Assembly: GCA_051294905.1 (NCBI GenBank)
Contig: CM119372.1
Span: 10,480,001 to 10,544,000, forward strand
Direction: 5' to 3'
Length of the DNA: 64,000 nt
Origin: Botryllus schlosseri
Taxonomy: Eukaryota
A program made the position numbers and the translations under genes. The notes under the pieces were generated by a model. That model searched no databases and was not told the origin of the DNA. It saw nothing but the letters and a program-made list of their open reading frames with translations. Below, in pieces: positions 19,893-62,049 of the stretch (the stretch's first letter is position 1; each line of letters opens with the position of its first letter).

Positions 19893-20127
19893 AATCCTCC
19901 AATCAGGAAGATAGCCTGAGGAATTTCGGTGCTGTTTTCACGGAGTATCAACATTAAATTTTCATAAAAGTTGAGTTAAACCCCAAATTTTCGTCGCGAT
20001 TCGCGCACGGTGGATATGGTGTGACCGATATGATTTCACGAAAGTATCGGTGAATATAATTAGGTAGCGGGTTACGTGGTTCCGTTCACACCGAATTGTC
20101 GCCTGTATGAAATATTTCGTCACAGTA

Positions 20128-22102: not shown

Positions 22103-22247
22103 ATGGCTCGTCATAACGTTTGAAACTGATGTTTCGCAATCTAGCATTTACCTATCATATCGTAATCTAGCAGTCCATGGCGTGTCCTAATCAGGAAAAG
22201 TGAACTCTGACTTTTTTCATAGCTTTAGACCTGTTCTAGCATCCCAC

Positions 22248-22300
22248 CGGGGCCTACGATACTTAGTAAGATCGATACTTAGTAAGTATCGTAGGCCCCG
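22248..22300. mobile_element. 53-bp inverted-repeat element (CGGGGCCTACGATA family) with 7-bp TSD
   Basis: 18-bp perfect arms CGGGGCCTACGATACTTA / TAAGTATCGTAGGCCCCG; TSD ATCCCAC at 22241-22247 and 22301-22307. Confidence 0.85.
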
Positions 22301-23251
22301 ATCCCACATTTGACTTTCTGGACCAAAGACATGAAATACATTTTCCACTTTTAGAAGGAATATTTACATTTCTCTTTCAATTCCCAGTATCATACTTTGA
22401 GTTCTAATTAATTTGTTCTTTTGTCCGGAGAACATACATGTTGAGGTATATAAGCTAATGTAGAAATTCCTTTAATTTGCGGATATATATAGCTACACAA
22501 TATGACATATTTACGATCCACCATATTTTTTATTAACGTTTACTAATCGCGCAAAGTGTTTACACCATATCCGATACAACTTCTCCGTTTTGCTCTTCGA
22601 CTAAACTACTGGCCTTATAATATGGGGAAGGGCGCCATACCATATTTTCTAAACGGGCTGTTCGAGTAAACAGAGAATTAGTATCGCATTTCCATATCAA
22701 TACTATCATTTTCATCCCATGATGCAGATTAATGCTTATATGCTGTCGAAAATTGGATACCTCCTGGTATGCATCAAAACGAATCAAGCTCCGGACCTTT
22801 CGCATAGCTTAATTTGCAGCTTTTGACAATCCACGCGAACGAGTTACGATCGTACTTTGAGAAAAGACTGGTGCAAACTATGAACAACCAGTTAACTCGT
22901 GACATCAACAAAGAATTTAGACTCCCGCACACAGAAGATCGGGTTATTTACGTCTTTCCCGTAGCACCCGTTAATCGGTCACATACGTAGACCACATCGA
23001 TCATACTCCATCGCAGTGCGTCAACATTCTGGCATGGAAGCCGGTGTTAGTATAGATAACTAAGGTACTAAGGTAGTGTTAGTCAGTTTATGGAATGTAA
23101 ACCATAACAATCGGCAATTACCTCGCTGCCGAGGCAACAATATCGTCGGCTGCTCGGGGGGTGTGACGGCGTTGAACAGTAAGTTTTGTTCACTAATTGA
23201 ATCTGTTAAGCCATATGCAACGTTTTGCTCATAGGGGTTATCTGGTAGATA

Positions 23252-23606
23252 CCAGAGTGGAATCGGTGGCAACGGCACGCGCAACGTCACGCAAGCATTT
23301 ATATCTGATCACGCCGATTAGTGAATTATGATGACGTCACGAAGCGATACCAGACTCCAGATGCAGAATAAGGCGCTGGCGCTTTACAATGCAAGCGTGG
23401 CATTTGTGCAACAGCGAATATTCGGCATAATCCTGGTCCGGTGTATGCCAGGTCTATTTTAGCACATGGTGTCCCTTATCAAGTAATTAAGTATCGAATC
23501 AGAACGAAAAATATTTCCTTCACGCGGATGAAATTTTCCAATCACGCGAGAAATCCGTCTGTCACGCACAACATGTTGTCGAAAACAACCACCGATTCCA
23601 GTTTGG
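23252..23606. mobile_element. MITE with CCAGAGTGGAATCGGTGG TIR, copy 1
   Basis: CCAGAGTGGAATCGGTGG / CCACCGATTCCAGTTTGG; exact TSD GGTAGATA at 23244-23251 and 23607-23614. Confidence 0.88.
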
Positions 23607-23612
23607 GGTAGA

Positions 23613-24119
23613 TAGGGCTGGGCAAAATCGAGTACCTGAGTGATTCGATTCTGAATCACGTATTACGCTTCGAGTCGAGTCGAGTATTCGAGTATCACTC
23701 ATTATGACGTCACAACAGAATGTACTGTGTCAACGTTGAAATATGTACCTTTTATGCCACTACAATTCTTGTTATCCGTCACATTAAAGACACTTTTGTA
23801 TTTTTTCGACCATACCGATGTCATTGTACTTCTTGGCAATGTTGTGGGATGATCATGACTTCGAAAATGTGTTATTTCCAGTAACGTTCGTAGCTTTGTA
23901 CTGTGTCTCGTATGCTGCGACACGGCCAATCCAGGTTTCAAGCCTTCCTTAGTGAAAAATAGTATCAAAACTATAATTCTCGCTAGTAAATTACCTTTCA
24001 GTTGCGAGGAGCGTATAATTTCAGAACTCGAAAAAAATCCTCTTTTGCTACTCGACTCGAATCACTAAAATTAATACTCGATTCAGATTCGAGTACTCGA
24101 ATCATTGTGCCCAGCCCTA
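23613..24119. mobile_element. hAT-type MITE (TAGGGCTGGGCA TIR, TCGAGTA/TCGAAT repeats)
   Basis: TAGGGCTGGGCA / TGCCCAGCCCTA; TSD CTGGTAGA at 24120-24127, with the left copy at 23242-23249 displaced by the later 23252 insertion. Confidence 0.85.
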
Positions 24120-24319
24120 CTGGTAGATAGACATATTCAGTAACATCACCGTTTATAAGAGCCCGGCGGCGACACTCACATGATTTCATTGATTCTGGAC
24201 TGTTTGGTCCGGGTAACGTAAGATCGGCATTGACAATAATGTCATGTTGTTATAATGTGATGAATTGGCCAATTAACTTGAACTTTTCTAGATAGCGGTT
24301 TTGTAACCACAGTGTAGCA

Positions 24320-24682
24320 CCAGACTGGAATCGGTGGTTGTTTTCGACAACATGTTGTGCGTGACAGACAGATTTCTCGCGTGATTGGAAAATTTCATCC
24401 GCGTGACGGAAATATTTTTCGCTCTGATTCAATACTGAATTACTTATTAAACGACACAATGTGCTAAAATAGACCTGGTATACGCTGGACTAGGGCTACG
24501 CCGCATATTCGCTGTTACGCAAATGCCACGCTTGCTTGAGTTCATTGTAAAGCGCAAGCGCCTTATTCTGGATCTGGACTCTGTTATCGCTTTGTGACGT
24601 CATCATAATTCATTAATCGGCGTGATCAGATATAAATGCTCGCGTGACGTTGCGCGTGCCGTTGCCACCGATTCCACTCTGG
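24320..24682. mobile_element. MITE with CCAGAGTGGAATCGGTGG TIR, copy 2 (inverted relative to copy 1)
   Basis: CCAGACTGGAATCGGTGG / CCACCGATTCCACTCTGG; exact TSD GTGTAGCA at 24312-24319 and 24683-24690. Confidence 0.9.
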
Positions 24683-25994
24683 GTGTAGCATAGCACTTGG
24701 TGGTAATGCGATTATATAACGATATCACTTCAAGTATACCGTACTGGCGTACTATAGTCAAGTATAATATGGAAAGTTCAACAAAAATTTCTTATGAATT
24801 GTAATCCACAGAGCCTATATTTTGTTCTCCGGTGCAGAGTTTTGTCAAAACCAATAGTATTGAAAATACTGGTTTACGGCGCTTTTTGACTGGATTTTTT
24901 TAGTATAAAACCATCGCTTTTATGACATTAGTTCTGATTTACCAGGTGTTTTGAAATGCAACATGGCAACTTGAAAGTCCCTCGCCTATCAAATGCATTA
25001 GTGTCTACAATTTTAGAAGATTAAGTGTACATCAAGACTTATTTAGATATAGCGAGTTGGGTAACTTTCTATCCTTCAATCTTACTAAACCACACGTCAA
25101 AGATGGGGATTTATTCCACTTATTATATGTACAACTCTACATCGTCAGGGACATCGTTGACAGTCTGCCGTATATTTTGCAATACCGTATAACAGTGATG
25201 ACTGATAGCTTATTCGATAGCAACAATTAAGATGTTAGTCTATGATTCGAAATAGGATATCGTATCGTCATGGTGCTGTGTACTTGTAAGTGTATCATAT
25301 AGAGTGCACCTTTATTGTAAGGGGATAGATAACTGCCATGAGTGACAGGTCTCAAGTCCGATGATCTTGCTTGAAAGGCAGTATTGGCATCATACCCAAA
25401 AGTGCACTGCACAATAATGCACAATTTGTCATATACCAGGCATCAATTGAATCGTCTCTCACAACATGTAAGGTGTCTTCGATACCGTACTCTGCTGATC
25501 AAGTTGGTGTGTCCATATATTCCATATTTTTAAAAGATGGCAAAGTTGATGTTACTTTTAGCTGGAATAAATGTTGTTATGTGTAACCGGCCTTATTTCT
25601 ATAAAGCTGATTAACCTTTTACGTTACAGATGTTACCGTCCATTCGGCTACACATGAACAAGAGATATACTAAGTCGCACCCAGGGATGTGGTTAGAGGA
25701 GGCTAGTGAGGCAGTGCTTTACCGCCAGGATAAGTAAAAGAAAATAGTGAAACTTTCCACCATTAAGCCTACGCATCAGATGAAATTTTTGTTTATGTTG
25801 ATATTTTTATTGTTTGTTGTTTGTTTTTATGTTGTGGTGGTGGTGGGGTAGGGATAAACTGCACTACATAATGTATATCACAAGTCACATTTAGTATTAT
25901 GTCACCATTGTTCAATTGTGGGATCAGGTCTTCTATACATAGATTTGAGATGTGAAGGAATTCCGAAGCTCAGTTAACTCCTAAATGATGCAAT

Positions 25995-27110
25995 GAGAGA
26001 GAGAGTTTGAGAAATTTATTCGTCATCTCAAAAAATCAAAAAAGATACACATGATTCCAAAAAATATTGTCCGGTCACAGTAGGTAAGATCAAAACACAA
26101 GAATCGTGATATGAAATGTACAAATATAAATGCTAGACTAACCTATAGCGAAGCGATCGGGTGATCATCCAGTCTACAACAGCTGTATGGAGTAATTTGA
26201 TATATATTTTTGCCCATTGCGCAATAACGGTGAATTGCCAAAAGTGTAGATGTAAGAGCACAGAATGAGTCAGGTCAGTTATGGAAAATTATCAAAATAC
26301 AAAATATGTCGGCTGGCACTGGTTCATATTAGGAAAACTGTTAGCTTTTATAGGATTCAATAAGATCATGACGATGCTTGGTTTTTAATACATATAAAGA
26401 ATTGTTTCTAATATGGATGTATGGACTTCCATATAAGGGGACCTTGATAAGTAATGGTTTAGTGATGAGCCTTCGTTAGATGTCAGTCTTGTCAGTTCAT
26501 AACAGAACTGCTTGTGAAATGAGAAAGGTGTTTACTAAGAGGGGTGAAATAGTCTAAGAAAATGTCAGGCAGGGTAATATTCAGAGGTGGTCAAAGTAGC
26601 CACCGTCGCTACTCAAGTAGAAGTAGAAGGAACACCAGAATTTCTACTCGAGTAGAAGTAGTAGTGGTGGTTCACAAGTAAGTAAGTAGGTATTCTACAC
26701 CTATTTTTGCCTAAAAAACTGAAAACTGTCAAGTAGAAGTAGTCTAAAATCATTACCACGTAATAAGTAGTGCGAGTAGGCAAAATCTACTTCTAGTACT
26801 TCAAAAAGTAGAAGTACTTCGTTACTGACCACCTCTGGTAATATTATAGTACTTATGCATCAGAATACCCATATACCCACTTCAATACTATAGATATTCT
26901 TAAATTTCAAGAATTTCAGACTATATGGTAAGAGATTGAGGCGATCTCTACGATTGGCAAGGAATATTAATGTAAATGTTTTTATAATCTGCATCAGAAT
27001 AGATGGTTTTGGCGAGTATTGCAAAAATCTGGTTGCAAAGCAATTTTTTACTCGGTTCAAAAGTTTAATACATTAGTAGGTGCTATCATAGTAGAGTCAC
27101 TTCTTTGCTA
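25995..27110 (-). mobile_element. Decayed CR1-group LINE 3' fragment with (CT)n tail, split by a MITE
   Basis: Minus-strand remnants SLKFLKFKNIYSIEVG, MHKYYNITLPDIFLDYF, TITYQGPLIWKSI; AATAAA followed by (CT)n at about 25995-26020. Boundaries approximate. Confidence 0.7.
26582..26837. mobile_element. hAT-type MITE (CAGAGGTGGTCA TIR, AGTAGAAGTA repeats)
   Basis: CAGAGGTGGTCA / TGACCACCTCTG; exact TSD GTAATATT at 26574-26581 and 26838-26845. Confidence 0.9.
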
Positions 27111-27789
27111 TTGTGATCACATGTTATTATAACGTTTTTTTTAGCAATATAGAATTGGTAGTACGGTAGATATTAAAAAAAATCACTGAATTTTTTGTTA
27201 TGTTTGTTGATATTTCGTTTTTAAATTTCTAAACGGGTTAAGAAATGACGCGCAGCCGCGACAGCTGGAGCGTGAAGGTCCTGTGGAAATTTCAATAAGT
27301 TGCAGCTCCATTACGGTGCCCCTTTAAAAGAGAATTGAGTGATTTAATAAGTGACGTAACGTACTGCAACAAAATTTTCAACAACACAATCAAACCAGTG
27401 GAATATGTTGGTTGGCGATTGAAAAATAATGGCATACAAGAAGAGGCACTCGGACTTATGTCTTAGCTCTAATTAGTTGATGACAGTACAGCAAAGTTAA
27501 TCTCGTCAAAATTGGACCTCACATCGCAAAGTTATCACATTTTCAATTTGTGCTCACCTAACCATAAATTTCAATTACTCAGTCATTGTATGAGACAGTA
27601 ACTGCCATAAAACAGCATAACTATATTGTTGAGGCCGATTTATAGTACCTATGATTGAATATATTTTACTCATTAGTCGTTGAATCTTTGTTGGTCAAAA
27701 TTACTTTATACAAAGTTTTAAAACTAGGTATTTTTCATTACTAAGTCAGAAAAATGGAGGATGATGAATTTAAAAATATGAATGATTGG

Positions 27790-28667
27790 TAGGGCGATTT
27801 TTTTACCTAAAAAAAGGAAAATTTTGACCTAAAAATCAAAATTGTGACTTTTTTCGACCTAAACAAACTGAATTTTGACTGAATTTTGAACTAACGTATG
27901 CAGAATGTAGATTAGGTGTTTTCCCACATAATGTTAAAATTGTACCGCTTATCTTCATTTCGAGTTGGAACTGGCTGTCCTAACTAAGTAGTTTGTCCTG
28001 AAAAAAGTTTTTGGCTTAGAAAGGTCAGGCAAATTTTTACATGAAAAAAGTAATCTGGCCCTATGAAGAATTCCAGTAGTTACAATACGTATTATGGCAG
28101 AAATAATTAAAATTTGTTGTAGTACAACGAGAGATACTTTCCAACATTCTCGGGTAGAAAGTGCATGTCCTTACTAAGAAGCTTGCCAAGAATGGAGAAA
28201 GAATGTTCAACAGCAGCAGTTGTTGGCTGACAACACTCAAGTTGTGCGTACACTGCTGGTGACACACCGTGTTGCAAGTTGCTTCATTCTGACAATGTTT
28301 TCTACATTACAATTTCTCATCATGCCCTTCTTAACATAAGAATGATGCAATGCCCAAGAAGTCTTTCTTCAGTTAATATATTGCGGTACGTTGACCATAA
28401 CAGCATGTCTACCTATTTGTTTTATTTGACCGTTTATGATTCACAATGGGCAGACAATTGACCGTCTACATCTACAACGTTAGGCCTATAAAGTAGGCTG
28501 TAAGCTGTAAAATGTCTAATGATAAGTTCACCGACCGTGCAAATATTCATGATATAAACGAAATGCTGGTGGCAAATTTATCTGACTTTGTAAACAATTT
28601 TGACGATTTTTTAACCTAACGCTTCAATTTTGACAAAATTTTGACATGTCAAGAAAAAATCGCCCTA
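27790..28667 (-). mobile_element. hAT deletion derivative retaining the transposase C-terminus
   Basis: TIR TAGGGCGATTTTTT / AAAAAATCGCCCTA; TSD ATGATTGG/ATGATGGG (7/8); minus strand reads TTAAVEHSFSILGKLLSKDMHFLPENVGKY, an ERSFS-like hAT dimerisation motif. Confidence 0.8.
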
Positions 28668-28779
28668 ATGATGGGTAATATATTATTCTATTTTTGAACT
28701 TAGTAGGGCCTACCCCACAAAACAAAGTGTCATCAAAAACTATACTGCTATTTAGTGCTATTGGTATTTGCCTGCTGAT

Positions 28780-29319
28780 CAGGGTTGTAACCAAGTCACA
28801 AGGCTCCGAGTCACAAGTCAATCTCACTTTTATAGTTTTGACTCGAGTCAAGTCGAGTCATTTTCAATTCACCACCGAGTCAAGTCCAAGTCACCGAGCA
28901 GGGGTTCGAGTCCGAGTCATGGTATTATGACTCGAGTCCGAGCCCAAGTCATTGTGTTGACTGCTCAGTTCCCAGTTAAAGTTTTGTTAAACCCACTTTT
29001 ATAACTCAGTTTCGTGATATCGAATGGTTCACATTTATAATATAGAAATTGGTCGCATTTTCAAGTACCAGTATCAATAAACGAAATCCCAACAAGGTGG
29101 TTACTTTACTATACTTCGAAATTACAATGAAAAGTCGGTCTTGGCCGTCTGAGTCTCGAGTCATGTGACTTGGTTCGAGTCATGCGCAATGACTGGAGTT
29201 CAAGTCGAGTCAGTATAAAGATTGACTCGAGTCGAGTCAAGTCATTTCCGTGTTTTGAGAAAATGACTCGAGTCAAGTCGAGTCATCAGAAAATCGTGAC
29301 TCGAGTCATTACAACCCTG
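28780..29319. mobile_element. CAGGGTTGTAA / GACTCGAGTC MITE
   Basis: Same TIRs as 16803; exact TSD CTGCTGAT at 28772-28779 and 29320-29327. Confidence 0.92.
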
Positions 29320-31002: not shown

Positions 31003-31323
31003 ATGGACACGAAAGGTGGACAGACTGTATCATACGTCGGCCAGAGGCCATATTCGCCGTCGGACGTCATGACCTACGATATTTCATCGGACTCGTCCGA
31101 TGAAAGTACCAAAAGCAAACTCTGTGGCAAAGTTTTATGTTCTCCGGGCCGATCGGAATCGAGCGACGACAGCAGTTCTAGTTATGAGTACCAGTGGAAA
31201 GAGGCAAAACCAGCAAAACCACCGATAGAACCGTGTTTGACCATGGTAAATATTGGCTTGAAGGATATTCCGGCCGTTAAGCGGGAACGTTTGGTGATTA
31301 CGCCTCTGAAGGCCGTTTGCAAG
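31003..31323 (+). CDS. Probable first coding exon of the large uncharacterised gene
   Basis: ATG 31003 (acceptor TTCTTTGCTGTAG upstream at 30943); Ser/Asp-rich ORF MDTKGGQTVSYVGQRPYSPSD...LKAVCK; strong phase-0 donor AAG|GTAAGA compatible with exon 40895. Linkage to the downstream exons is inferred. Confidence 0.55.
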
Positions 31324-31557
31324 GTAAGAGCAAATATCGCCACGTAATCAAACCGTATTTTCTTGCCTACAAAGCAAACCTGCGACGTCGATGGCGCTGG
31401 TTGGTGTTTATGGTGGTAACGGTCGTTGCTCGTCCATGTTTGATATCGCGTGTTTGCTGCGTTACACATTAACACGAACAAGTGGAATTTGAAATGTTTT
31501 ATGATAGGGCGGAGCCATCGGATGGTGTTTGATATGCATTGTATTGTATACATTATA

Positions 31558-31951
31558 TAGGGTTACCATATTTTGGAAATCTGAAAAGAGGACACTCTTT
31601 CAGAATTTTCAAACTTGCAAAACCAGAGGAAAGTCCTGAAAAAATGGTAAATTTTCCTACTTCGTGGTCGGTTGACTAAAAGAAGGTCAACTTTCTCTCT
31701 CAGCGCCCAAAATACTGTTTTCCTTCACATTAACAGGTGTTTGACTAAAAAAAGGTCGACTTTCCGACTCAGCTTCCGAAATAACCGCCGGAGCGTCACT
31801 TCCGTGCTGATTTACGGCATCTCGGTCGAATTTGGCCGTAAATTTTTCCAAAATTCTCAAAAAAGAGGACAAAAGGGCGTCCTCCGAGGACACTTTCAAA
31901 AAAGTAAAAAAGAGGACAAATCCTCTTAAAAGAGGACGTATGGTAACCCTA
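31558..31951. mobile_element. TAGGGTTACCATA MITE (inverted sibling of 15526-15864)
   Basis: Both TIRs present; internal sequence matches the reverse complement of the 15526 copy with local duplications. Confidence 0.85.
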
Positions 31952-32795
31952 GATTGTATCAATGAAAGACGTTCGAGGTGCAATGCTCTGCTTGGATCTG
32001 ATTCGGGCTGGAAATGTACACTTTGTTGGTCGTCTTTACACACGTTTCATCAGTTGAAAGCATTACAAAATTGCGATGCTGTAACAACATGGGAAAGAGT
32101 CAAATTGACTCGTAGATCAGGCCACCCTTTCACATACAGCCAATAATGTTGAAAACATGCTTTCAATAGGCATGCATGTCTTGTCTATACCGTGGTAGAG
32201 ATACGAAGGTAGAAGGGCATAGAGAGGAATAGACGTTGGCAGTAGAGAGGCATATATGATGGAACGATCTATGCGAGAAATCGATATTTGAAAGAGGTGA
32301 TCCGGCTATGTCACGATTTGAGAGTGCAGTCTGCCCACGTCAGGATTCTTGCAAATTACCTATGTCCTATTTTATCGCAGAGGCAATTAACCTATTCCTT
32401 TGTTGGCAGTTAACAGCCCTTTGAACTCATCAACCAGTTCACACAGCCTGTCAAGAATGACTCAAAATCATGTTCTTATGTGCATCCAACACGGGCTCAC
32501 TTCTGTAATCTTCATTAAATATTGATTTCATTCCACATCCATGTTCCATACATTCGATGGTATAAAAACCAACTTTACAGACACAGCACATTGATGTACT
32601 CGCTAGTTCATTTGCGATAATCACCTAAAATATAGGACGTGGTTTTAAAATGATGTCGAGAGGCAGCAATGAATTATGGAATTGATATTCTGAATGCTTC
32701 CTCGTTTCGCTTGATGAATCCCTGCTATCTTGCGTATGCAACTATGCATGTACCACAGCAAAATCGACGCCTGCGGTTGGAATGTTGCATTCAAC

Positions 32796-32821
32796 CGGGG
32801 CCTACGATACTTAAGGCCCCG
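32796..32821. mobile_element. 26-bp CGGGGCCTACGATA-family element with 7-bp TSD
   Basis: CGGGGCCTACGATACTTA + AGGCCCCG; TSD ATTCAAC at 32789-32795 and 32822-32828. Confidence 0.8.
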
Positions 32822-35411
32822 ATTCAACTCATTCAATGATTAATATGATCACATAAAACCTCCTATTCTGAAAGAAGCAACTGTAATTATAGGCCTGTTC
32901 AGTTGTTCATGCTCGCGGAGAGCTGCCATAGTACGGTGTCGGTGTGTCGTTGAAGCAAATACTTGTCGATGTAATATTATTGGATATTGTGTACTCATTA
33001 TCATCATTGGATGATCATTGGAGAATGGAACTATCACACGATTACTAGTTATTGATCCTAATTCAGTCTAGGCTCATGGCTTCCCGTAGCGCCCCGACCT
33101 TGTACGAAATGTACGGTGTGCGCTAGGGGTAGGCAACTCCCAAGGGGCCAAAGAAGACACAGAAAATACGTTCGCGGTCCAGGCCGAATGTATAACTATA
33201 CTCTGCGTGACTGCGTCGTATTCATTTGAGGTATTTCTAGATTGAAAAGGCTGTCTGGAGGTACAGAACTTCAATATACAATTCAGTAGTATATTCATAT
33301 TGAGATGAACCCGAATATTTTCGGCTGATACTCGTAAGTGGTAATCGTCAGCGACTAGTAGAGAATTGGAAAGAACATTGTATATCAGTGTTTCCCAAAC
33401 TTTTTCTATTTAGAATATATCCTGGAATCAAATCACCATATCCTTGTGCAGTTTTCCGAGATTTATGCTTTTCCATCAAATCGGGTATGCGAAATGACCG
33501 ATAGCTCAGGCAAGATGAGAATTGAAACGGTTCACGTCTCGCAAAATTTCGGTGATATATCAAGGGCTTATCACTGAATCCGGACAGTGCCATCCTCACC
33601 CTGATCACGTTTCATCATTACTAAGAACGGACATATTCTACTCATAAATTTTGGAGAATAGTAGTAGTATCAGATCAGCGATATCGTTTCCCGCAACCTG
33701 AACGCCGTGTCGAAGGCCACGGTCGCAGCACTGTCGAAAATCCGCGATCGTTTGAAACAAAGATTGAAATCACGCAAGACAGTTTCCCTTAAAATGCCAT
33801 CTCACCTTGTATTGAGCAATAATTGCTCAGATACTTCGTAGTTCTCACAGCACACAATAAACCACGCTTTCTAGGTATTCTGCCGACTGCTAAATTAGTT
33901 CACTGATGGGCAGGATCAGCATTGTCAAGTAGAAATGGACTTTTCCGGTACAGCTGATTAAATAGATGGAAGACCCTAAATTGCCCTGACTGAATCGATT
34001 TTGCATTTTTACTTCATGTTTAGTAGCCTAATTCGTGAATCGTTTCAATACCAGACAGCAGTTGCCTACTAAACTGACACCGCCGCCATTTGCTCTCGGC
34101 GCCTCCTCACCGTCCAATTTTAAAGCCAGCACCCCACAATCGCCCATTTCATGATCATCGCCCCCTTCGCGCTCACGAACGCCCCCAGGGGGTGCTGGCG
34201 CCAACTCTAAAAACCAATGTTGTATATGAACAATCGTAACTTCATTGTTCAAAGCAATGGCAAACATGAAACATTTTATTAGCTATTTTTTAACCACATT
34301 AACCCCCAGACACGTTTTTCTATTAATACACCAAAAAGTATTTTGCACGTTACATATCTTGTCTTAGTCACTGTATCCCGAGCTGTTTGTAGCCTGGTAA
34401 AATATCGCTGTCGTTCTACTAATCGCTTCGGTAGTAGATATTCTGAAATAACCCCCTCTCCGGCAGCCGAGTGTCTGTCTGCGTGTAGCCTATTTATCCA
34501 TAATGTCAACTTAAATTATACTCCTTGAACACAGCGATCTACTCACCACAAACTAAAAAAGGTTTTTCCTCCGACTTCAGCATTGTGCTCTAAACCATCT
34601 TGAAATTTTGGTCTTCGGCCCGAGCTTTGTTTTTTGACATTTTGAATCTGGATTACGCGTACCGCGTACGTATGCTATATGTGGTCACATCACATAAATG
34701 AAGAGGCTTCAAAGTAAATGCATTTCCGGGTCTGGTATACAGCCTACGATTTTAGTCGCGTAATAACATCCGAAAGTATGTTTCATGTTCTAAATTCCAA
34801 TCAACTTTTCGCGGGCCAATCAACTTTTCGCGGGCCAGTCAGAATCGCATCGCGGGCCGTGCAATGCCCAGGTATAGTGTACACTGTAGGCCTACCGTGC
34901 AGCAGTGGTGCTCAACCGCCGGTGTCGGTCCGTGGCAACTGTTCTGTCGGTCCGCCAGATGTATTAGAATATTTTTATCCAAATTCCAAAATGGAAGACG
35001 TTTGGCGTTTGTCCATTAATTAGAGATATAAAACATCAAATTTTGAATTGATTCAGAAGTATGGGACGTATCTTATGGTGTCGCAATAGGGATTTCATGG
35101 CCTTCTTGGGGCCTGCGTTAGAATGGTGCTACTGTTGAAAATTACCGTAACCTGCAACTCGTTTCGAAGAAGTTGTATGTTGAAGCTACGGAGACTGTTG
35201 GAATAAATTTTGTTAATTCCGACAGTGCAATTAAGCGACACTTGGCAGTAAAATAGAGGTTATAGCAAAGTCGCATTTCTTTCAAAGCAATGCTTTTCAA
35301 CCTTTTTGAGCACCATTCGCACAAACTAACTGAAAATTGTCCAAAATTAGATGACGATACCTAACAATATCTTGTTCGGATGTGCAACAAATAGTCTGCT
35401 ATAGCTTAGGC

Positions 35412-35800
35412 CAGTGGCTCTCAACCTTTTCGGACTTGCGTCACCCTTTCAAAATGAAAAATAGTTCGTAGCACACTAGCATACAGTGGTTTTGAAATAG
35501 CTCAACTGTGTGTCAGATAGTGTCTATTCTTTTTAAAAAGTGCTTTTTCAATGTCTTTGGTACCATAGCCTCATTTGACAATTTTGCATGACAGAAAAGG
35601 CAATCTGGCAGAGATTGCGATTCATCATCACGTCAAGTGATGCCCATATTTAGATAACTGTTGCCATTTATGCGTGCTCTCCAGCTTTCTTTTCTAACGT
35701 ACCTCCACTTCCATAATCTATTTTCTTTGCTGCAATGATCATCACCACTTGACTTACTTTCTTTCAAAATAAGAGTCTCCATTTTAATATTTCTAAAAGT
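35412..35800 (-). mobile_element. Buster/Charlie hAT remnant with decayed BED-finger region
   Basis: TIR CAGTGGCTCTCAACC at 35412; minus-strand pieces SYLNMG, PDCLFC, LSNEAMVPKTLKKHF resemble the ZBED5/Buster N-terminus. Confidence 0.6.
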
Positions 35801-35942
35801 AAACTTGAGTAAAACGTCTCACATATAGATTACTAAGCCCTGAAAAAAGTCGCCGTAATCCTCCGGCCAGAATATCGTTCCTTGGTAATTACAAGAAACA
35901 GCTCATATTCAGACATGACTTAAAGGAGGGTCATTATGATTA

Positions 35943-36893
35943 GGGGAGATGTGGTACCGATGGATCACTGGGACCGAAAATACTTTGAAAATTCTCTATG
36001 ATAATTCCATGATTACACTCCGCGCACTTTTTCACAATTGCATGCTGGCGAAATCTTTCCTCGCATACAAATAAATTCGACGTGCGCGAGCTATGGGGTC
36101 TCTGAGAGATGATTTTTGTTTTGGGGGGGTGTAAACTAAATTTCGATCGACAAATACATTTTTCTTTGTAACCTTCAACACGAACAAACCAGCAATCATT
36201 TTCAATGTGAAGTCTATGGCTTGTATCAGGCTATATAATGGCACCTATTATTTTTTCAATACCTTCCTTGAGTGGAATTTTTTTCGATTCATGTATAAAA
36301 TTCGTAGGGTGGGGACCGATGATACAATAGCCAAATCAAGCAAAATCATCAAGCATATTATTCATCCAACAACTGAAACATGCCTACGTACAGAAACTCT
36401 TTATGTAATAATTGCATATGATGTGTTATCGCTATAACGAGGTATTTGGATGTCACACTGTCGATTTTCGGGCAATATGCGTGTACCCTCAAATTTATAA
36501 GTTCGAGTGTAAATCAAAACGTGATTTTATGGCAACATTTGAGTTATTACTTATTCTATTTTTTGACGGTTGCGACCAAAAAATTCTTCTTTGGCTTACT
36601 GTAGCTTAGATCAAAATACTGAGCAAGAAATCTGAGTTTTTGAGAGTATGTGTCATAGGTCCCCGGGTCGTGTGCCATTGGACCCACCGGGTGGGGACCG
36701 ATGACACGTTCGAGCAACAGATTTTGAACGTCCATAAATATTTTTTGGAAAGACGGACATTCGTGTATATGTGCGCGATAGGTAGAGCTTGTATCAAAGT
36801 GCTGAGCCAGCGAAAGATCTGCTGTTTTCGGCTGAACATTTCGGGGCCAGCGATCATTTTCCAATCTTTGATCCGTCGGTACCACATCTCCCC
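35943..36893. mobile_element. Tc1/mariner(pogo)-type non-autonomous element, uninterrupted copy
   Basis: TA|GGGGAGATGTGGTACCGA ... TCGGTACCACATCTCCCC|TA (TA TSD). Confidence 0.88.
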
Positions 36894-36964
36894 TACTGCG
36901 CTTAGATACTATTTCATAAGTAGTCGAAATTTTGACATTTTTTGACCTTAAAAAAACCTCGCGT

Positions 36965-37736
36965 ATGTAAATTAGGTGTTTTCCCACATAATGTCAGAAT
37001 TGTAGTACTTATCTTCATTTCTGGTTGGACCTGTCTGTCCTTAAGAAGTAGTTTGGCCTGAAAAAACTTATTTGACTTTGAAACTGACAAATATATACAT
37101 GAAAAAACTTTGTTTTAACGAAATCTGGACCTTGTCGAATTCCAGTAGTTACATCGCGCATTATGGTAGAAATAATTAATATTTGTTGTAGTAAAACGAA
37201 AGATACTTTCCCACATTCTCGGGTAGCAAGTGTCTGCCCTTACTAAGTAGCATGCCGAGAATGGAGAAAGAACTTCAACAGCAGCAGTTGCTGGCTGGCA
37301 ACACTGAAGTTGTGCGTACACTGCTGGTGACACAGCGCGTTGCTTCATTCTGACAATGTTGCCTACATCAACGTTTTTCATCATGCGCTTCTTGATATAT
37401 GAACCAATGCCCACGCAGTCTTGCTTCAGTTTGGATATTGCGGTACGTTCAGCATCACACCATGTCAATTGTCAACCTATTTGTTTCACTTGACCGTTTA
37501 TATGATTCACAATGAGCAGATAAGGGACCTTCTACAACGTTAAGTCTATAAAGTAGGCTGAAAACTGTAAAATGTCAAATGATAAGTTCACCGACCGTGC
37601 AAACATTCATGATATAAACGAATTGCTGTTGGCAATTTTTTTTGACTTTGTAAACAATTTTGATATTTTTTTAACCTGACGCTACAATTTTGACATTTTT
37701 CGACATATTTTGACATGTCAAGAAAAATTCGCCCAA
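36965..37736 (-). mobile_element. Second copy of the hAT deletion derivative at 27790-28667
   Basis: Colinear with 27905-28667; minus ORF remnant VSPAVYAQLQCCQPATAAVE then, frameshifted, SFSILGMLLSKGRHLLPENVGKY. Confidence 0.8.
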
Positions 37737-37764
37737 TTCATAAGAATATGTTTGACAAACTCTG

Positions 37765-37990
37765 CACACTTCCGCATTGTCCATGTAACTAACCATGGAT
37801 GCTAAACGCATTTCCACGCACATCCTGTAGCAGGCGTGAGGATAGGCAGGCCTCGATAGTTCTACTAGCAGTCACCCGGAGTTCCATTATAGTGCCAAAC
37901 TTCCGACAAACCGGGATAATATCCTCTGCGGCCGGGAAATTTGTTAACTGTATAATTTGATGAACTTTCTCAATTCTCAAATTCGTCGCC
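37765..37990 (-). mobile_element. Possible 3' remnant of a restriction-like-endonuclease (CRE/NeSL-type) LINE
   Basis: Minus ORF ends CLSSRLLQDVRGNAFSIHG, resembling the C-terminal QRGNA motif of RLE retrotransposons; weak similarity only. Confidence 0.35.
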
Positions 37991-38574
37991 TATAACATAA
38001 CGTTGCGCTACAAGCTTATATTTTGAGGGCAGTGCCGGCACGCTGCCTACCAATCAAAATCATCACTTCCAAAGGAGTTCATTTAACATTTCTCGCTTGT
38101 GATTAGGAAGACATTGACACAGTGGCACCGCAAAGTCTGCTCTTCTCTGACATTAATCAACGTATTGTGCAAAAATTCAATTTAGCCTTCAAAGCACGCG
38201 ATATGTCGGATAAAGCGACATTAGCTGGGGCTATTGATTGCCTGTATGACAGCAATTTAGATTTGTCAAATATACAAACTTCACATCTAGCCCGATCTAA
38301 ATTACACTAGGCAACAATTTTGAACGGAGAATTTGTTGACTTTGATTTTGCACTTGTTTTAGGCTGATTTTGACGTGCTGATTCTAAAAATGCCGCTGGC
38401 TTCTAGCACGTCAAGTTTTTGCTCTACGACATGAGCCCAAAATATGCAAATTTTAACATAAATTTAGCCACATTACTTTTCCATACCACATAGATATCCA
38501 CACTTTTATCATAAGTTATATAGGCAAGGGGTCAATTAAATTATTGGAAAAACGGTACTGGTATCGTTCTAGGG

Positions 38575-39700
38575 CAGTGGTTCGCAACATGTACGCGTAC
38601 CACTAGTGGTACGCGAAGGTCTTCCAGATGGTACGCGAGTAGATTCTGGTTTTTGTTCTCCAATAAACTTCAGGCTTAGCATGGCCTTCTCGTACTCGAC
38701 TTTAGCTTCTCACGCCATTCCCCAGCTGCTAAGTGTGTGAGCAAGGATTTTTATCTCTGATGACTATCAAGTCGGAGAAACGAAACTGACTTATTGCGCC
38801 CATGCATGACTTTCGATGCGCTGTGAGCAAACATATGCCACGCATCGACTAGCTAGTGCAGTGGTTCTCAAACTGGGAGCCGGTGTTTACTTGTTGTCTT
38901 CTCAGATTGCAAGAACGGGATTATTCGGTGCCGACTGCCGACCATTTCGACGACGGAGTATATCCATATTGAAAGTTTTGGCCGACCAGCGAAGGTCGTT
39001 TTTGGCCAAGGTTTGGTCGCCGCTGATCTGTTTGGCACTACATTATATCAGCGTTGTTTTGGCAAGAACTTCACCTCTTCATATATGCCTGCCAATACAC
39101 CAGTATTCGAACCAGGCTTTTGATCGCGTAATAATTATGGTGCGCAAACATTAATTCAGTACAGCTGGTGAGCCGTGAGAGACAGAGATATTGTCAAAGC
39201 TACGATTAGTGATTAGGTGTGTCGGAAGTCAAACAAGTTATTAGAATTACGTCGCAACTACAAAAGTTAGCGAACCACTGCACTTGAATTTCCTATTAGG
39301 ATTATTTCAGGGATATATAGAATTCCCTGGTTTATTTGAATTATTACACGTCAGAAAAAGTAACAATTATTCGCACACGCACCACGACCGTCATCCGCGC
39401 TGCAAATTTTTTCATCGCACAAGTGCGTACCATCCCGCAGGTTGAAAAGCACTGTTTTGAAGGTTACTGACCAATCACAATCCGGTTAGAGGTCTTTAAC
39501 AGGACTTCGCGAGCTTCGCCTTGCGGAAACGAATAGAGCCACTTATTTATCTAGTGTCAAACAGGCTTCTTAAATGAAGTTTCCAATATTACCGGCTATA
39601 CCGGTTCGCGTGGTATAAAAGGTTGAGAACCACTGCTATACAGTACACCTACCCCACTGGTAGACATGTATACAAGGCATGTCCAACCCGCCGCTCTTGA
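38575..39700. mobile_element. Cluster of nested/fragmented Charlie-like hAT MITEs
   Basis: Several CAGTGGTT(C)-type ends at about 38575 and 38859 and reverse ends at about 39280, 39453 and 39635; pairing not resolved. Confidence 0.6.
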
Positions 39701-40200
39701 TGTCGATGTTTTTATTTGTGAATTTTTGCTCTTTCGTGGCCCTCCATTCACTAACAATTGTTTCTCAAACGCTGCACATTGCACATTTTCGCACGATGTG
39801 CGGAGCGCAACTCTCACGAACACCTCACAAGCCAGTTTGCGTTGGTGTCATGTAGGGCGTTGTGCTAAACCGAAATTCAAAACTACGGTGAGCCAATTAC
39901 CGAAACAAACCCGATACAGAACATGAGAGTTAACCGGCAGTACCTTCACCAAGTGAACAAAATTTTCAACAGATTGAAATCATTGTGGAGAGCTGATAGG
40001 CTATTTGCAGGACTTCCACCACGCGATTGACTGCGCATAGCAATTCACTCTCTTCTACATTTCTGCTAATGGTCAACTTTTCATTTTAGATCTGTCATTT
40101 AGGTTTATGTATGTAGGATTGTAGGGGCTCTGAAAGTCATTGGTAATGTTTTCGACAGCATCACGCAGAAATACTTGGTGCTCTATTGCCGTATTACGGC

Positions 40201-40644
40201 TAGGGTTGCATTTAAAGCAAACGGTGTTTTAAGACACTTTGTTTATAACATGTTTTAAACAGTGTTTTAAAAAAAGGTATTTTAAAAAAAAAAATTTTTT
40301 TTTCAAGTTGTAAAATTATGCCATCATTGTGTAAATACCTTACAAAAAGCATGTTGTATGAGCCTACGGACAATTACCACCCGATGGTAGCCGAGGTATA
40401 TCGATATGGGATGGTTGGAACACTCGAAATAGTCGGTTCAACAGCAATAGTACATATATTTCGTCAAAGGAGCTATTTTACCCTATTTTTTATATTGTCA
40501 ATGTCAATCTATTATGACGTCGCAATTGAATATTCGTGACGTCATGGCTTTAAAAAAACAAAAACAATAAAACTATGTTTTTAATTAGGGCCTTGTTTTA
40601 AACGTGATTGTTTTAAATTGATTTTTGTTTTAAATGCAACCCTA
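40201..40644. mobile_element. hAT-type MITE (TAGGGTTGCATTTAAA TIR)
   Basis: TAGGGTTGCATTTAAA / TTTAAATGCAACCCTA; TSD ATTACGGC/ATTGCGGC (7/8). Confidence 0.88.
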
Positions 40645-40894
40645 ATTGCGGCAATGCGCGTTGACATCGAAGTACGACACTCGTCTATAGTGGACGTATA
40701 CCGACGGATTTCATTGACGTACAAGTGGGCATTAATTGTAGCATTATGGATTAGAATTCTTGTAGCAATTTCGGGGTCACCTATGATGTATACTGTGTCC
40801 ACCACTCGTATTTTCTATACTACCCACCGAAATCGTGATCGATACAGCAGTGAGTCCGCTCGACCGATAGGACTAAATCTATTCTGCATTACAG

Positions 40895-41101
40895 CTATTG
40901 CTTGAAGATGATAGCCCTCAAGTATTAGATGAACTTCGTAAACTCGGCGTGCACCATTTAACGGCGTTTGAAGCGAATATGATGACACAACATGCAGCCA
41001 GTTTGCTGCGTCGTGGCATTAGAGATGTGGAAACTGTGAAAGAGTCAAAATGGCCGGAATTTCAACGCGGCGACGAGGCGTGTCCTGTTGATTCGCTAAT
41101 A
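40895..41101 (+). CDS. Internal exon of the large uncharacterised gene (phase 0/0)
   Basis: Acceptor TTCTGCATTACAG, donor ATA|GTGAGT; LLLEDDSPQVLDELRKLGV...VDSLI; the 64-nt intron joins in frame to the next exon. Confidence 0.75.
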
Positions 41102-41165
41102 GTGAGTTGCGAGCGAAAGCTTTGTGACTGATTGATTGTGGTAAATACAGTCTTCTCCGTTGCAG

Positions 41166-41868
41166 GCTAGCTATGATGCGTTGTTGCGAACTACGCATAA
41201 GACTGCGGAAGACGAGAGCGGAAACTTGAACTTTGAGATGTTGATTTCTGATGCGTTGCGGCACGAGGAAGAATCGTCGGTTGTTGATTGTTCGGAAGGG
41301 AGTGCTGAACCTGCGAACCGAGAGAATTCGGTTGGACCAAAATCTGAAAATCGTGCGGATTCCTCCCAAACTGATAAGAATTCTAACCCGGCTGAGAAGA
41401 CGCTGAGCGATGTTACGAATTCTCAAATTTCTGATGCGACGCCTGTTTCGGGAAATGGCTCGCGGTTTTTAATGCGATGGCGATCGCACAGTAAAAGTGT
41501 TCCGACAGGAACCTTTAAGGAGTCTTCGCGTCAACACGCAAATAACGTGAAAAATTGTATGCGTAATCAATTGTTTCCCGAAAGCGAAGACGCGGACTCC
41601 GAATTTGAAGGGAGTGAGGTTTCTGTTAAGAAGAAGAGAAAAGTGAGTGTGAAAAGGAGCCTGCGAGGGAATGGGAAAATTCCGCAAAGTCGATTCGTCG
41701 ACGTGAGAAATATACTCCCACGTGAGTGTTTGCGCTTATGTGATCTTTACCGTAACACCTTAGAAACTCGCAGACATTGTGTAGATTTTATGAAGGAACA
41801 AGACAAGATCTCTAGGTCGATTTCAGCTTTGGATAAGACCTTGACAATCCCGGAAGTGGTCAACTCGG
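41166..41868 (+). CDS. Internal exon of the large uncharacterised gene (phase 0/1)
   Basis: Acceptor TCTTCTCCGTTGCAG, donor G|GTACGT; 234 open codons including NLS-like VKKKRKVSVKR; phase matches the acceptor at 56750. Confidence 0.75.
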
Positions 41869-41988
41869 GTACGTATATACTGTGCAATTTACTAGATCGA
41901 CTAGTCGTATAAATGTACGCATCATCGGGACCGACAAACTCGGAGATAATACCATCATGCAATTACTGATGCTGATCTTCCCTTAGTG

Positions 41989-42287
41989 CAGTGGTTCACA
42001 ACCTTTTTTAGACACGCCCCCCTTTATGATAGTGAAAAAATTCGCGCCCCCCCTTGTCGTCATATCACAAAATCCAACCAGGATGCTAGCAACCCCAACA
42101 GATTGTTTGATGGCATGGAAGGTTATGACTGTTGAAGAGAGTATTCAAAAATATGAAATTCGGTCTATATATGGAGAATCACTCGTGAATTGGGGGTAAA
42201 TCGCGCACAGCGCGAAAAAAATTCAGTTGACCGCTTCTTCGCGCCCCTCTTCAGATGCTTTCACGTCCCCCAGGTTGAGAACCACTG
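41989..42287. mobile_element. hAT (Charlie-like) MITE
   Basis: CAGTGGTTCACAACC / GGTTGAGAACCACTG; exact TSD CCTTAGTG at 41981-41988 and 42288-42295. Confidence 0.92.
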
Positions 42288-42998
42288 CCTTAGTGATAGT
42301 GGATTCTGGTGCTTTGCACGTAATGAAGCAGACCTCGACATATGACCATTGATCAAACCTTGGAAGAATTGCTCGATCTGTGATTGTTTACAGCTCGAGG
42401 ACTAGATGGTAATGAAAAAACATAATTATTAATATAACGTCTTGAGTTTACTATCCTGCATGAGACTGCATGTCCACTTGTGCGGCGCGCCCTTTCCAGA
42501 TATTGTAGAATGATGTTGGATATGAATCGCACAGAATTTGGAATACTTAGGTGCCGTGAGGTATTCAATAACACCTAGCGGGATGAACCTGGTATTGCAT
42601 ATTTTTCGCGACAAACATGTGGTATGCAAATCACATCATAAACTCTAACTTGGCAATCGGACAGGCATATCAATCATCAACAGTAACTCCTGAATAATTC
42701 ACATATACCAGTGGCCCTCAAACCCTATTTCCCGCAACCTTCGAAAATGAGATCCTGCAATATTGATAAATTTGTGCTTCACTTGAGGAGTAGTCATGAC
42801 ACAACTGTTGCGACCATCAAACTTCCTATAAAACGTACTCAGACCATGTTAGATAATTTTACGTTGCTTGTTCCGATTATTTATCCAATATATATATTTA
42901 TTGTATATCACTATAATTTTTTTTTTAATTACGTGTACACTTAGTCCTGTAACGCATACCTTTGAGCCAAGATAAGTTAATCAGGACAAAGGCGTCGT

Positions 42999-43496
42999 CA
43001 GGGTTATGACCGAGACGCAAGTCAATTCGACTTCTATAGTTTTTACTCCAGTTAAGTTGAGTTATTTTCAATTCACCACCAAGTCCTAGTCAGAGAGCAG
43101 TAAGTTGAGTCCGAGTCATAGTGTCTACCGTTTAGTATCGAGGTCAAGTCGGGGTTGAACTCACTTGTATGAAATTCCAGGTAGATATCGAAGTCCTCTG
43201 ACCGGACTCATTTTTCTCGCACTGAATAGTGAATGTGTTTATTCAAACAGATTGACAGACTGTTTTTCAAACAGACTGTTTTTGGGCCTATTTTTTAATT
43301 ATCGGTTCTAATATTCTAGACTTGAATAAGTCATGTAGAATGTGTCGAGTGATATGACTTCCAAGGTCCAGTTAGGCGTAGTGACTCAAGAATAAATTGG
43401 GTCAATACAAAATTTGTCTTGAGTCGAGTCTTTTTTGCTTTATAAGATAATGATTCGAGTCAACGAAAAATTACAACTCGAGCCATTACAACCCTG
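42999..43496. mobile_element. Older CAGGGTTGTAA / GACTCGAGTC MITE copy
   Basis: CAGGGTTATGA / TTACAACCCTG and decayed GAGTC repeats; no TSD retained. Confidence 0.7.
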
Positions 43497-44103
43497 GGCA
43501 ATGGGCATAGTACCTTTTGCTCCATGTCAAAGTCAATTGCGAAATTGATATGCAATGCAGCATAAATATCTTCTGGTCTCATTTCATACAGATGTTTCGT
43601 GTAAGTGTATGTAGGCCAAATATAAGGATGGTAGATCAATTCTGCCAAAATTGACTGACTTGAGAAGGTGCATTATAGTTGATGCAACGAAACTTCTATT
43701 TGGTCGTCCATACGACTACACGTGCACAGTAGGATTATGACTAAAAAATGCCTGTAGCAGGAATCAATGAACATTTTGGGATAAATTAAGAAAATTATAA
43801 TTATTTTGTTCGAATCGTAAAAAATGTCCCGCACAAACTGACTTCAATTTTCGTCAATTGTCGAAATGTAACAAAATTTAGAATTCAAAAGTTATTCTTT
43901 GCTACAAATTTAATGTTCAAATATTTGTCCTTTTGCACCTCTGGTAAAGGTCTTCCATCAATTTCACTTCCCTTTCTACAATTATGCTAGTGCCAGGGAC
44001 ATCTACAACGGACTTATCCGAATTCCAATCGATTGTAAGGTACTTTGACGCTGCAGGTCATTCGAGTTCAAAGAGCATCAAATAATATTTGGTATATCCC
44101 ATC

Positions 44104-44153
44104 CGGGGCCTACGATATTTACGAATATATATTTACGAATATCGTAGGCCCCG
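44104..44153. mobile_element. 50-bp CGGGGCCTACGATA-family element with 7-bp TSD
   Basis: 16-bp perfect arms CGGGGCCTACGATATT / AATATCGTAGGCCCCG; TSD TCCCATC at 44097-44103 and 44154-44160. Confidence 0.85.
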
Positions 44154-45046
44154 TCCCATCTATAAATCTCCGGTTAGAAAACCAGATTTCCTGACACGCA
44201 TTTGCGATGAAGAAGCAATTAAGCATGATATCTCCAGAGCAACTCAACATCTAGGGATTAGGAAGTAGGCAATCATGGCCCTCGAACTCCATCTCGCACT
44301 GTGTAGAGATGGACGTTCATGCCATTTGATTAGTGGCAATCTACCGTTTTATTCGGAAGACCGGAATGGTCTGCACAACTCAAAAGAAAAACTTAAAATC
44401 GTCCCTCCATCCTGGGTTTTCGAATACTTTCACTTGGCTTGGTGCATTGCACCTAGTTTTCGTAGTGTTTTACCACGTCATCCACAAATTTGTAGCTGAT
44501 AGTTGGTTTTGTTGAAGACGTTGGATTGAAGAACTCTGGTACATGCTTTAAGACTCAAGAACAAGATGTTGGCAACCGATATACTGCGGTTTATCAAAAC
44601 CCTTGCTGTTCATTGCATTTTACTGTTTCACAGCGCCATTCAGCCGTCCAGTATCATCATTTATGTTGTGTCGCTCTGTCACATATGATATGACATTTTC
44701 GAATTTTCCTAGTGATCATGTTCCCGTATTAGGTTTACTCGACTCCTGAAAATATCTTGAGCCGTTCAACTTTCGCATTTTAGGGCACTCAGTTTGATTT
44801 GTGTCAGGCAAATTCATATAAGACGATATATATTAGTCTACATCTAAAATCGAAATTAACAATTATTAATATTTTTTCATGTCATAAGCCTAGTGTGCAG
44901 TGCACGCAGGGTGGTTCAAAATTGCCTAACTTTATAGAAATCTTTGTCTTCAGTTAGTTTCCGAGCACTTTGTTCACATCTTCCATATTGGATCTATGTG
45001 TACTGGATTTTGATCTACCCCAAATTACTGAAAATCTGTTTTGAAA

Positions 45047-61991: not shown

Positions 61992-62049
61992 GTTACTTGA
62001 AATGCTTCATTCTATATGTTACGTTTTTTTTACCATACTTTTTATGTAG

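What the first reader, a model, noticed from the sequence alone, without database searches (positions are those of the whole stretch)
22241..44160. Ultra-short (26, 50, 53 bp) inverted-repeat elements with exact 7-bp TSDs: candidate P/Galileo-type excision footprints
Seen: three dispersed loci (22248-22300, 32796-32821, 44104-44153) start CGGGGCCTACGATA and end (TATCGT)AGGCCCCG. Each has its own perfect 7-bp direct repeat (ATCCCAC, ATTCAAC, TCCCATC; all end in C). Arms stop at 16-18 bp (one is cut back to 8 bp), and the centres are short re-copies of the junction (GATACTTAGTAAG x2; ATATTTACGAATAT x2). Known: P-element transposase cuts with a 17-nt stagger, leaving about 15-18 nt of each TIR at the donor site, often joined with templated filler; Galileo (P superfamily) makes 7-bp TSDs. 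Inference: these are excision scars of an unrecognised 7-bp-TSD transposon with CGGGG ends (atypical for P, which usually starts CA), or else a minimal mobile unit far smaller than typical MITEs. Three in 22 kb suggests high genomic copy number.
Basis: partly seen in the sequence, partly recalled or inferred. Interest (0 to 1): 0.72.

Follow-up and report, generated by a model that had tools for sequence, protein, structure and literature searches.

The report
Jumping-gene exit scars in sea squirt
Three tiny mirror-image DNA stubs are most likely the scars left where a cut-and-paste jumping gene, probably a relative of the fruit-fly P element, left its insertion site, but the parent element was not found.

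Summary
Three stubs (53, 26, 50 bp) share one inverted arm, and each has its own exact 7-bp flanking repeat; 0 of 100 shuffles reproduce the arm matches. The host is an ascidian. Four of six arms follow one 18-nt consensus and diverge from each other at base 19; the other two stop at 16 and 8. The centres are re-copies of the arms. This anatomy matches published Drosophila P-element donor-site junctions (17-nt tails plus templated filler). The target sites resemble the P/1360 motif (P about 0.001-0.015), though the hAT element hobo has a similar motif. One public run appears to carry the empty site at the third locus; this is inferred, since the joint row was not displayed. No genome was held, so the parent element, its transposase and the copy number were not found. 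P membership is untested, and the CG ends differ from the CA ends of fly and zebrafish P elements. The scan already noted similar scars with CAT ends in another genome (e1-7810740). Verdict: real excision scars of a known kind, from an unidentified parent that may cut 18 nt in; moderate interest.

The parts
22241..22247 (+). Locus 1 left target-site duplication (7 bp)
22248..22265 (+). Locus 1 left arm, 18 nt
22266..22282 (.). Locus 1 filler, 17 nt; part of a second copy of the central palindrome with one base missing
22283..22300 (-). Locus 1 right arm, 18 nt, perfect complement of the left arm
22301..22307 (+). Locus 1 right target-site duplication
32789..32795 (+). Locus 2 left target-site duplication (7 bp)
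32796..32813 (+). Locus 2 left arm, 18 nt, identical to the locus 1 arm
32814..32821 (-). Locus 2 right arm, cut back to 8 nt
32822..32828 (+). Locus 2 right target-site duplication
44097..44103 (+). Locus 3 left target-site duplication (7 bp)
   Evidence: empty allele inferred
44104..44121 (+). Locus 3 left arm: variant base at position 15; 16 nt pair with the right arm, 18 nt follow the consensus
44122..44137 (.). Locus 3 filler, 16 nt; part of an exact 14-nt tandem duplication (44115-44142)
44138..44153 (-). Locus 3 right arm, 16 nt
44154..44160 (+). Locus 3 right target-site duplication

Best explanation
Each stub is the donor-site scar of a cut-and-paste DNA transposon that cuts like the P element. 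Steps: (1) a longer element inserted and duplicated 7 bp of target (duplication shown; empty allele inferred at locus 3); (2) its transposase excised it with a long staggered cut, flush on one strand and about 17-18 nt inside on the other, so each chromosome end kept a single-stranded tail of the terminal repeat (inferred from arm lengths); (3) the two tails have the same sequence and cannot simply anneal, so the cell joined them by microhomology-primed, templated end joining of the polymerase-theta type, giving arm-derived filler, a duplicated junction (loci 1, 3) or a trimmed arm (locus 2) (inferred). The stubs are dead ends, not mobile units. The parent is most likely a P-superfamily family with 7-bp TSDs, as for 1360 and Galileo, but with CG ends; at least two sequence variants were active.
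For: Four of six arms run exactly 18 nt of one consensus and then read G, C, A, C at base 19; the others stop at 16 and 8. All 3 centres differ. Fillers parse into fewer arm-derived pieces than shuffled fillers (5 vs mean 7.2, P 0.044; 4 vs 6.4, P 0.013; 5,000 shuffles each). P transposase leaves 17-nt non-complementary 3' tails, and sequenced fly junctions include TSD + full tail + one base + short tail, and full tail + 12-nt re-copy of the junction + full tail (PMC2895639 Tables 1-2). 1360 and Galileo make 7-bp TSDs. The targets match the P/1360 motif at 14 of 24 positions (null 6.5, P 0.0012), the Galileo motif at 12 of 24 (P 0.015) and the 1360 TSD consensus at 10 of 18 (P 0.008). The 3'-terminal base is G, the base that contacts GTP in the P transpososome. 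In run X10 a contig piece ends at 44096, the exact joint predicted for a clean empty site, and a contig of the same depth (17.6) covers 44287-44400. P elements are cited for Ciona, and unchecked scan notes report many P elements in this genome.
Against: No parent element or linked transposase was found; none of 16 window ORFs scanned matched a transposase family and no genome was held. The ends are CG, not the CA of fly P and zebrafish Pdre2. The sample is six arms. The target-motif tests use 3 sites and three overlapping motifs, so they are not independent, and hobo (hAT) has a similar GT..AC motif. hAT families with 7-bp TSDs exist. The template-switch model needed 6-7 switches with 1-nt primers for loci 1 and 3, so it is permissive and does not prove the route or settle 17 versus 18 nt. 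Extra contigs laid on locus 2 (about 16 haploid equivalents in run X1) show that similar 26-27-bp stubs recur, which a mobile mini-unit would also give. No allele with a long element at these sites was seen.
Confidence: 0.65

Rival explanations
1. Abortive gap repair. A hAT-type or other 7-bp-TSD element excised at its ends, each flank began to recopy the element from the sister chromatid, synthesis stopped early, and the two short copies were end-joined. The stubs would be extreme internal-deletion derivatives of a non-P element.
For: hAT families with 7-bp TSDs are annotated in Repbase. The hobo target motif also has GT..AC. The window is rich in short elements with 8-bp TSDs and hAT-like ends. 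The CG start is unlike known P ends. Incomplete synthesis followed by end joining is common in the fly assay.
Against: Random stopping would not be expected to end four of six arms at the same base 18. That hAT excision leaves no terminal repeat at the donor site is recalled, not read here.
Confidence: 0.17
2. A mobile mini-element: units of 26-53 bp are themselves moved by a transposase supplied from elsewhere, each insertion making its own 7-bp duplication.
For: Each locus has a perfect TSD directly against the stub. An empty allele at locus 3 fits direct insertion equally well. Similar short stubs recur at other loci. Paired mini-elements of up to 80 bp (MADE1) are known.
Against: The three centres share no sequence beyond arm re-copies, and lengths differ. 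Locus 2 has only 8 nt of one end. Fly P uses 31-bp repeats plus internal binding sites, more than these stubs hold. That 26 bp is too short to bring both ends into one complex is my inference.
Confidence: 0.08
3. Collapse of a long palindromic (fold-back) element. A hairpin-forming MITE lost its interior by cruciform cleavage or slippage, with no transposase cut.
For: Long fold-back elements lie in the same window (23252-24682, 48134-50444), and the stubs fold into stable hairpins (z -4.7 to -10.7).
Against: None of the 19 window repeats whose ends were printed has these termini. Collapse gives no reason for a shared stop at 18 nt.
Confidence: 0.08

Closest known systems
Drosophila P-element excision footprints at the donor site (P{wa} assay; PMC2895639, PMC5466332; review PMC7776569)
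   Same: Both TSD copies kept; up to about 17 nt of each terminal repeat kept; short filler copied from the arms; sometimes one arm trimmed; tail ends in TA; 3'-terminal G.
   Different: TSD is 7 bp, not 8; ends read CG, not CA; the longest arms are 18 nt, not 17; the arm is GC-rich; these are natural alleles in a chordate, not laboratory events.
1360/Hoppel and Galileo (7-bp-TSD members of the P superfamily)
   Same: 7-bp TSD and a partly matching target motif; the locus 2 TSD matches the 1360 consensus at 5 of 6 positions.
   Different: Described from Drosophila; their ends begin CA (recalled); I found no report of their donor-site cut or footprints in my searches; no sequence link to these stubs was tested.
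hAT families with 7-bp TSDs (Repbase annotation; hATw recalled)
   Same: 7-bp TSD; hobo has a similar target motif.
   Different: hAT excision is not expected to leave terminal repeats at the donor site (recalled), so stubs would need abortive gap repair.
MADE1 / Hsmar1 mini-elements
   Same: Very short element made of two inverted ends (up to 80 bp).
   Different: MADE1 is described as an 80-bp unit with 24-bp ends; here every centre differs, the lengths are 26-53 bp and the TSD is 7 bp.
Scan note e1-7810740 (another genome; unchecked)
   Same: Micro-palindromes with 7/8-bp TSDs read as P-like excision scars.
   Different: CAT...ATG ends there, CG...CG ends here; that note had genome-wide counts, which I could not obtain.

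Membership tests
P superfamily (parent element) | TSD of 7 or 8 bp | tested here: met
   7 bp at 3 of 3 loci; 7 bp for 1360 and Galileo, 8 for P.
P superfamily (parent element) | THAP + RNase H + GTP-binding-insertion transposase inside the element | not testable with these tools
   No genome held; no parent found; 0 of 16 window ORFs scanned hit a transposase family.
P superfamily (parent element) | Termini CA...TG | tested here: not met
   Ends are CG...CG; fly P and Pdre2 begin CA. That CA is general for the superfamily is recalled.
P superfamily (parent element) | 3'-terminal G, which contacts GTP | tested here: met
   All 6 ends; role in PMC7776569 section 8. One base only, weak.
P superfamily (parent element) | Target motif ANAGT...ACTNT | tested here: inconclusive
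   14 of 24 positions, P 0.0012, but 3 sites only and hobo's motif is similar.
P-type excision footprint | Both TSD copies kept with at most about 17 nt of each terminal repeat | tested here: met
   Arms of 18, 18, 18, 8, 18 and 16 nt against the consensus; one base longer than the fly tail.
P-type excision footprint | Filler templated from the arms, different at each site | tested here: met
   3 of 3 centres differ; P 0.044 and 0.013 against shuffled fillers; duplications.
P-type excision footprint | The same site once held a full-length element | tested here: inconclusive
   4 runs laid on loci 2 and 3 showed no such allele in the rows displayed, but most rows were cut.
MITE (mobile mini-element) | Many copies with uniform length and internal sequence | tested here: inconclusive
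   Not met among the 3 window copies; some recurrence of locus-2-like stubs in run X1; no genome-wide count.
hAT with 7-bp TSD | hAT transposase in the parent and hAT-type termini | not testable with these tools
   Parent not found; Repbase is not available here.

The most novel reading that the evidence does not exclude
The parent is an undescribed lineage with CG ends, 7-bp TSDs and an 18-nt staggered cut. It could be the two-gene P elements noted in this genome, whose separately encoded C-terminal domain is the part that guides the looped-out single strand in the fly transpososome, or a non-P transposase that also cuts deep inside its ends. The scars would then be a natural genome-wide record of both the cut position and germline end joining in a chordate.
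Probability: 0.25. Interest if true: 0.62.

Novelty: new variant of a known kind. Interest (0 to 1): 0.38.

Why it matters
The long staggered cut is listed as a feature that sets the fly P element apart from other characterised cut-and-paste transposons. If these stubs are its equivalent in an ascidian, the cut position of an unstudied transposase can be read from the genome without an assay, and one can ask whether stagger length varies with TSD length, end sequence or transposase layout. The fillers would also sample natural germline end joining, and the stubs would be small presence/absence markers. As it stands this is three loci of a known kind of scar with no parent in hand.

Tried and rejected
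Genome-wide census: not possible, no genome is held for this window. Relatives elsewhere: a 17-mer gave 1 hit in viral contigs, an 18-mer gave 14 loci in metagenome contigs; 0 of these 15 had a partner end or TSD within the fetched flank. The two-ended pattern gave 0 hits in viral contigs and 1 in prokaryote genomes, without paired arms beyond 8 nt or a TSD. All treated as chance; these collections are not expected to hold an ascidian. Look-ups in the scan's notes by sequence found nothing for loci 1 and 3, nor did the look-up near the window; this does not show absence. Parent inside the window: no further arm match with up to 3 substitutions; one 4-mismatch hit at 31068; the 20499 match is not conserved in its paralogue; no flank of the three loci has a paralogue in the window that would give an empty site. 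Other boundaries (element starting at the first G, TSD of 8 or 9 bp): rejected, the longest flanking repeat is 7 bp at all three. Hairpin-opening footprints of flanking DNA: rejected, the arms are shared between unrelated loci. Cut position from a template-switch model: 18 nt was the only length that spelled locus 1, but loci 2 and 3 could be spelled with 17 or 18, and 1-nt primers make the model permissive. Run X7 at locus 2: its contig begins at the stub's first base and has 4 gap letters at an undisplayed place; I could not interpret this. A literature search for a 10-letter piece of the arm listed 14 papers, none on transposons by title.
Full report
What is there. The three loci are as described: 53 bp at 22248-22300, 26 bp at 32796-32821 and 50 bp at 44104-44153, each between two exact copies of its own 7-bp word. 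The shared 14-mer has five exact matches and one two-mismatch match in the window; 0 of 100 shuffles reached six. Short inserts with an arm of 8 or more and an exact 7-bp flanking repeat number 5 in the window and 0 in 60 Markov sequences; two of the five lie inside larger repeats. The longest flanking repeat is 7 bp at each locus, so the boundaries are fixed. Paired arms and TSD copies show no mismatch, which suggests young events (inference).

Host and setting. The XPR1-like protein at 388-2487 has Styela clava as its best named match (72% identity), then Ciona and Phallusia (59%), above vertebrates (about 55%), so the host is an ascidian, probably a relative of Styela. The window is rich in non-coding inverted-repeat elements. 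Of the 132 stop-to-stop frames of 75 aa or more, 16 frames were scanned against Pfam; none matched a transposase. None of 19 repeats whose ends were printed has these termini.

Anatomy. Read from the outside in, four of the six arms follow one 18-nt consensus ending in TA and then disagree at base 19 (G, C, A, C); the other two leave it after 16 and 8 nt. Locus 3 has T for C at position 15 in both arms, so at least two variants of the parent end existed. The centres all differ. Locus 2 has none: 18 nt meet 8 nt. Loci 1 and 3 hold the central palindrome twice (periods 16 and 14), and their fillers break into fewer arm-derived pieces than 5,000 shuffles each (P 0.044 and 0.013). These P values are modest.

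Comparison with measured P-element scars. P transposase makes a 17-nt staggered cut and leaves 17-nt non-complementary 3' tails at the donor site (PMC7776569, passages and section 8; PMC2895639, passages and sections 7 and 9; PMC5466332, passages). The junction tables of PMC2895639 show both TSDs kept, tails at or just under full length, and templated filler. They include a full tail plus one base plus a 7-nt tail, like locus 2, and a full tail plus a 12-nt re-copy of the junction plus a full tail, like loci 1 and 3. These junctions come from Rad51-mutant flies, and the second from a strain that also had an altered polymerase theta. 1360 and Galileo make 7-bp TSDs (PMC3698922, PMC4168063, PMC3276498; passages). 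The three target sites match the P/1360 motif at 14 of 24 positions (null 6.5, P 0.0012), the Galileo motif at 12 of 24 (P 0.015) and the 1360 TSD consensus at 10 of 18 (P 0.008). These tests overlap, rest on three sites, and do not exclude hAT, because hobo's motif also has GT..AC. The terminal G that contacts GTP in the fly complex is kept; the second base is not, since fly P and zebrafish Pdre2 begin CA (PMC10983969, passages). Anopheles P elements and their MITEs have 8-bp TSDs (PMC1562414, passages). P elements in Ciona are known to me only as a citation.

Alleles in other samples. Of 14 runs listed, 11 hold the locus 2 region. I laid 4 of them on 32500-44400, which covers loci 2 and 3 but not locus 1. 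The output showed only 15 of 363 joints, 12 of 26 indel rows, 24 of 2,241 loose ends and 32 of 36,066 pieces. Locus 2 is spanned without gaps in 3 of 4 runs (X1, X10, X11); X7 is unclear. At locus 3, a 753-letter X10 contig is laid from 43697 to 44096 with its first 400 letters, and a contig of the same depth (17.6) shows differences at 44287 and reaches the end of the stretch. A clean empty site would be reported from 44096 to 44154 under the tool's leftmost convention, which I checked on an intron joint. So X10 most likely carries the pre-insertion allele, but the joint row was not displayed, and a deletion that also removed the TSD would give the same left edge. For X1, X7 and X11 no displayed piece crosses locus 3. 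An empty allele shows that the 7-bp repeat is an insertion duplication; it does not separate scar from mini-element. In the DNA run X1, depth at 32813 is 143.8 against 8.46 for the locus's own contig. So locus-2-like stubs recur elsewhere with variation; the tool's threshold is unknown, so this is not a copy number.

Mechanism. Shown: shared ends, 7-bp duplications, a common stop at 18 nt, differing arm-derived centres. Inferred: a longer parent, a deep staggered cut, and microhomology-primed end joining of two identical tails. A simple template-switch model spelled locus 1 only from 18-nt tails and locus 2 in two steps with 2-nt primers from 18-nt tails, but loci 2 and 3 also work from 17, and loci 1 and 3 need 6-7 switches with 1-nt primers. 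An 18-nt stagger is therefore a lead, not a result. Rivals are abortive gap repair of a non-P element (hAT families with 7-bp TSDs exist; PMC4455052, passages), a mobile mini-element (MADE1 is up to 80 bp; PMC9062482, one passage) and collapse of a fold-back element.

What could not be done. No genome is held, so the census of stubs and the search for the parent are open. Scans of viral, metagenome and prokaryote collections gave only hits without partner ends or TSDs.

Novelty. P-type scars are established in laboratory flies. Nine literature searches listed no paper on natural P-type scars in tunicates or on a family with these ends; I saw listings and abstract openings for most hits, read no supplements, and the library lacks most subscription papers and Repbase, where such a family could be entered. 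The scan's notes hold a similar reading for another genome (e1-7810740) and several two-gene P elements in this genome; I did not test these, and their end sequences are not shown. The stubs work like P footprints; membership of the parent in the P superfamily is not shown, and one usual feature (CA ends) is not met. I rate it a new variant of a known kind, interest 0.38.

Noticed in passing
window 388-2487 (+): Uninterrupted 699-aa frame for an XPR1/SLC53A1 homologue (SPX and EXS domains); best named match Styela clava, 72%.
   Followed up: partly
window 5535-6017 (+): Frame with MAT1 (CDK-activating kinase assembly factor) C-terminal matches.
   Followed up: no
window 56681-62080 (+): A 1,799-aa serine/arginine-rich open frame with no Pfam match.
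   Followed up: no
window 40893-43028: Transcribed and spliced in three runs (GT..AG introns at 41102-41165 and 41722-41784); the 255-aa frame at 41145-41912 has no Pfam match.
   Followed up: no
window about 31917-33316: One 1,400-letter contig in each of two RNA runs spans locus 2 without gaps, so this stub is transcribed; intron or UTR not determined.
   Followed up: no
window 32796: A contig of run X7 starts exactly at the first base of the locus 2 stub and has 4 gap letters at an undisplayed place; could be a different allele or a stub shared with another locus.
   Followed up: partly
window 16803-17995, 28780-29319, 43010-43496, 45047-45581: Four copies of one non-coding element with short inverted ends, 8-bp TSDs in the first two, and many GAGTC subterminal repeats; hAT-like by recall.
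   Followed up: no
window 20126-22102 and 35941-36893: Two copies of an element with GGGGAG ends; the first holds a nested 1,008-bp element with an 8-bp TSD at 20790-21797.
   Followed up: partly
window 23252-24682, 6043-6645, 48134-50444: Long fold-back elements with arms 78-95% complementary; the last is nested in a 3.5-kb element with an 8-bp TSD at 48021-51513.
   Followed up: no
window 10577-13646: 3,070-bp element with 15-bp inverted ends and an 8-bp TSD; three frames in it had no Pfam match.
   Followed up: partly
window 53570-53841: 272-bp inverted-repeat element with degenerate TTAGGG-like repeats in its centre.
   Followed up: no
window 14999-15520 (+): Reverse-transcriptase fragment (Pfam RVT_1).
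   Followed up: no
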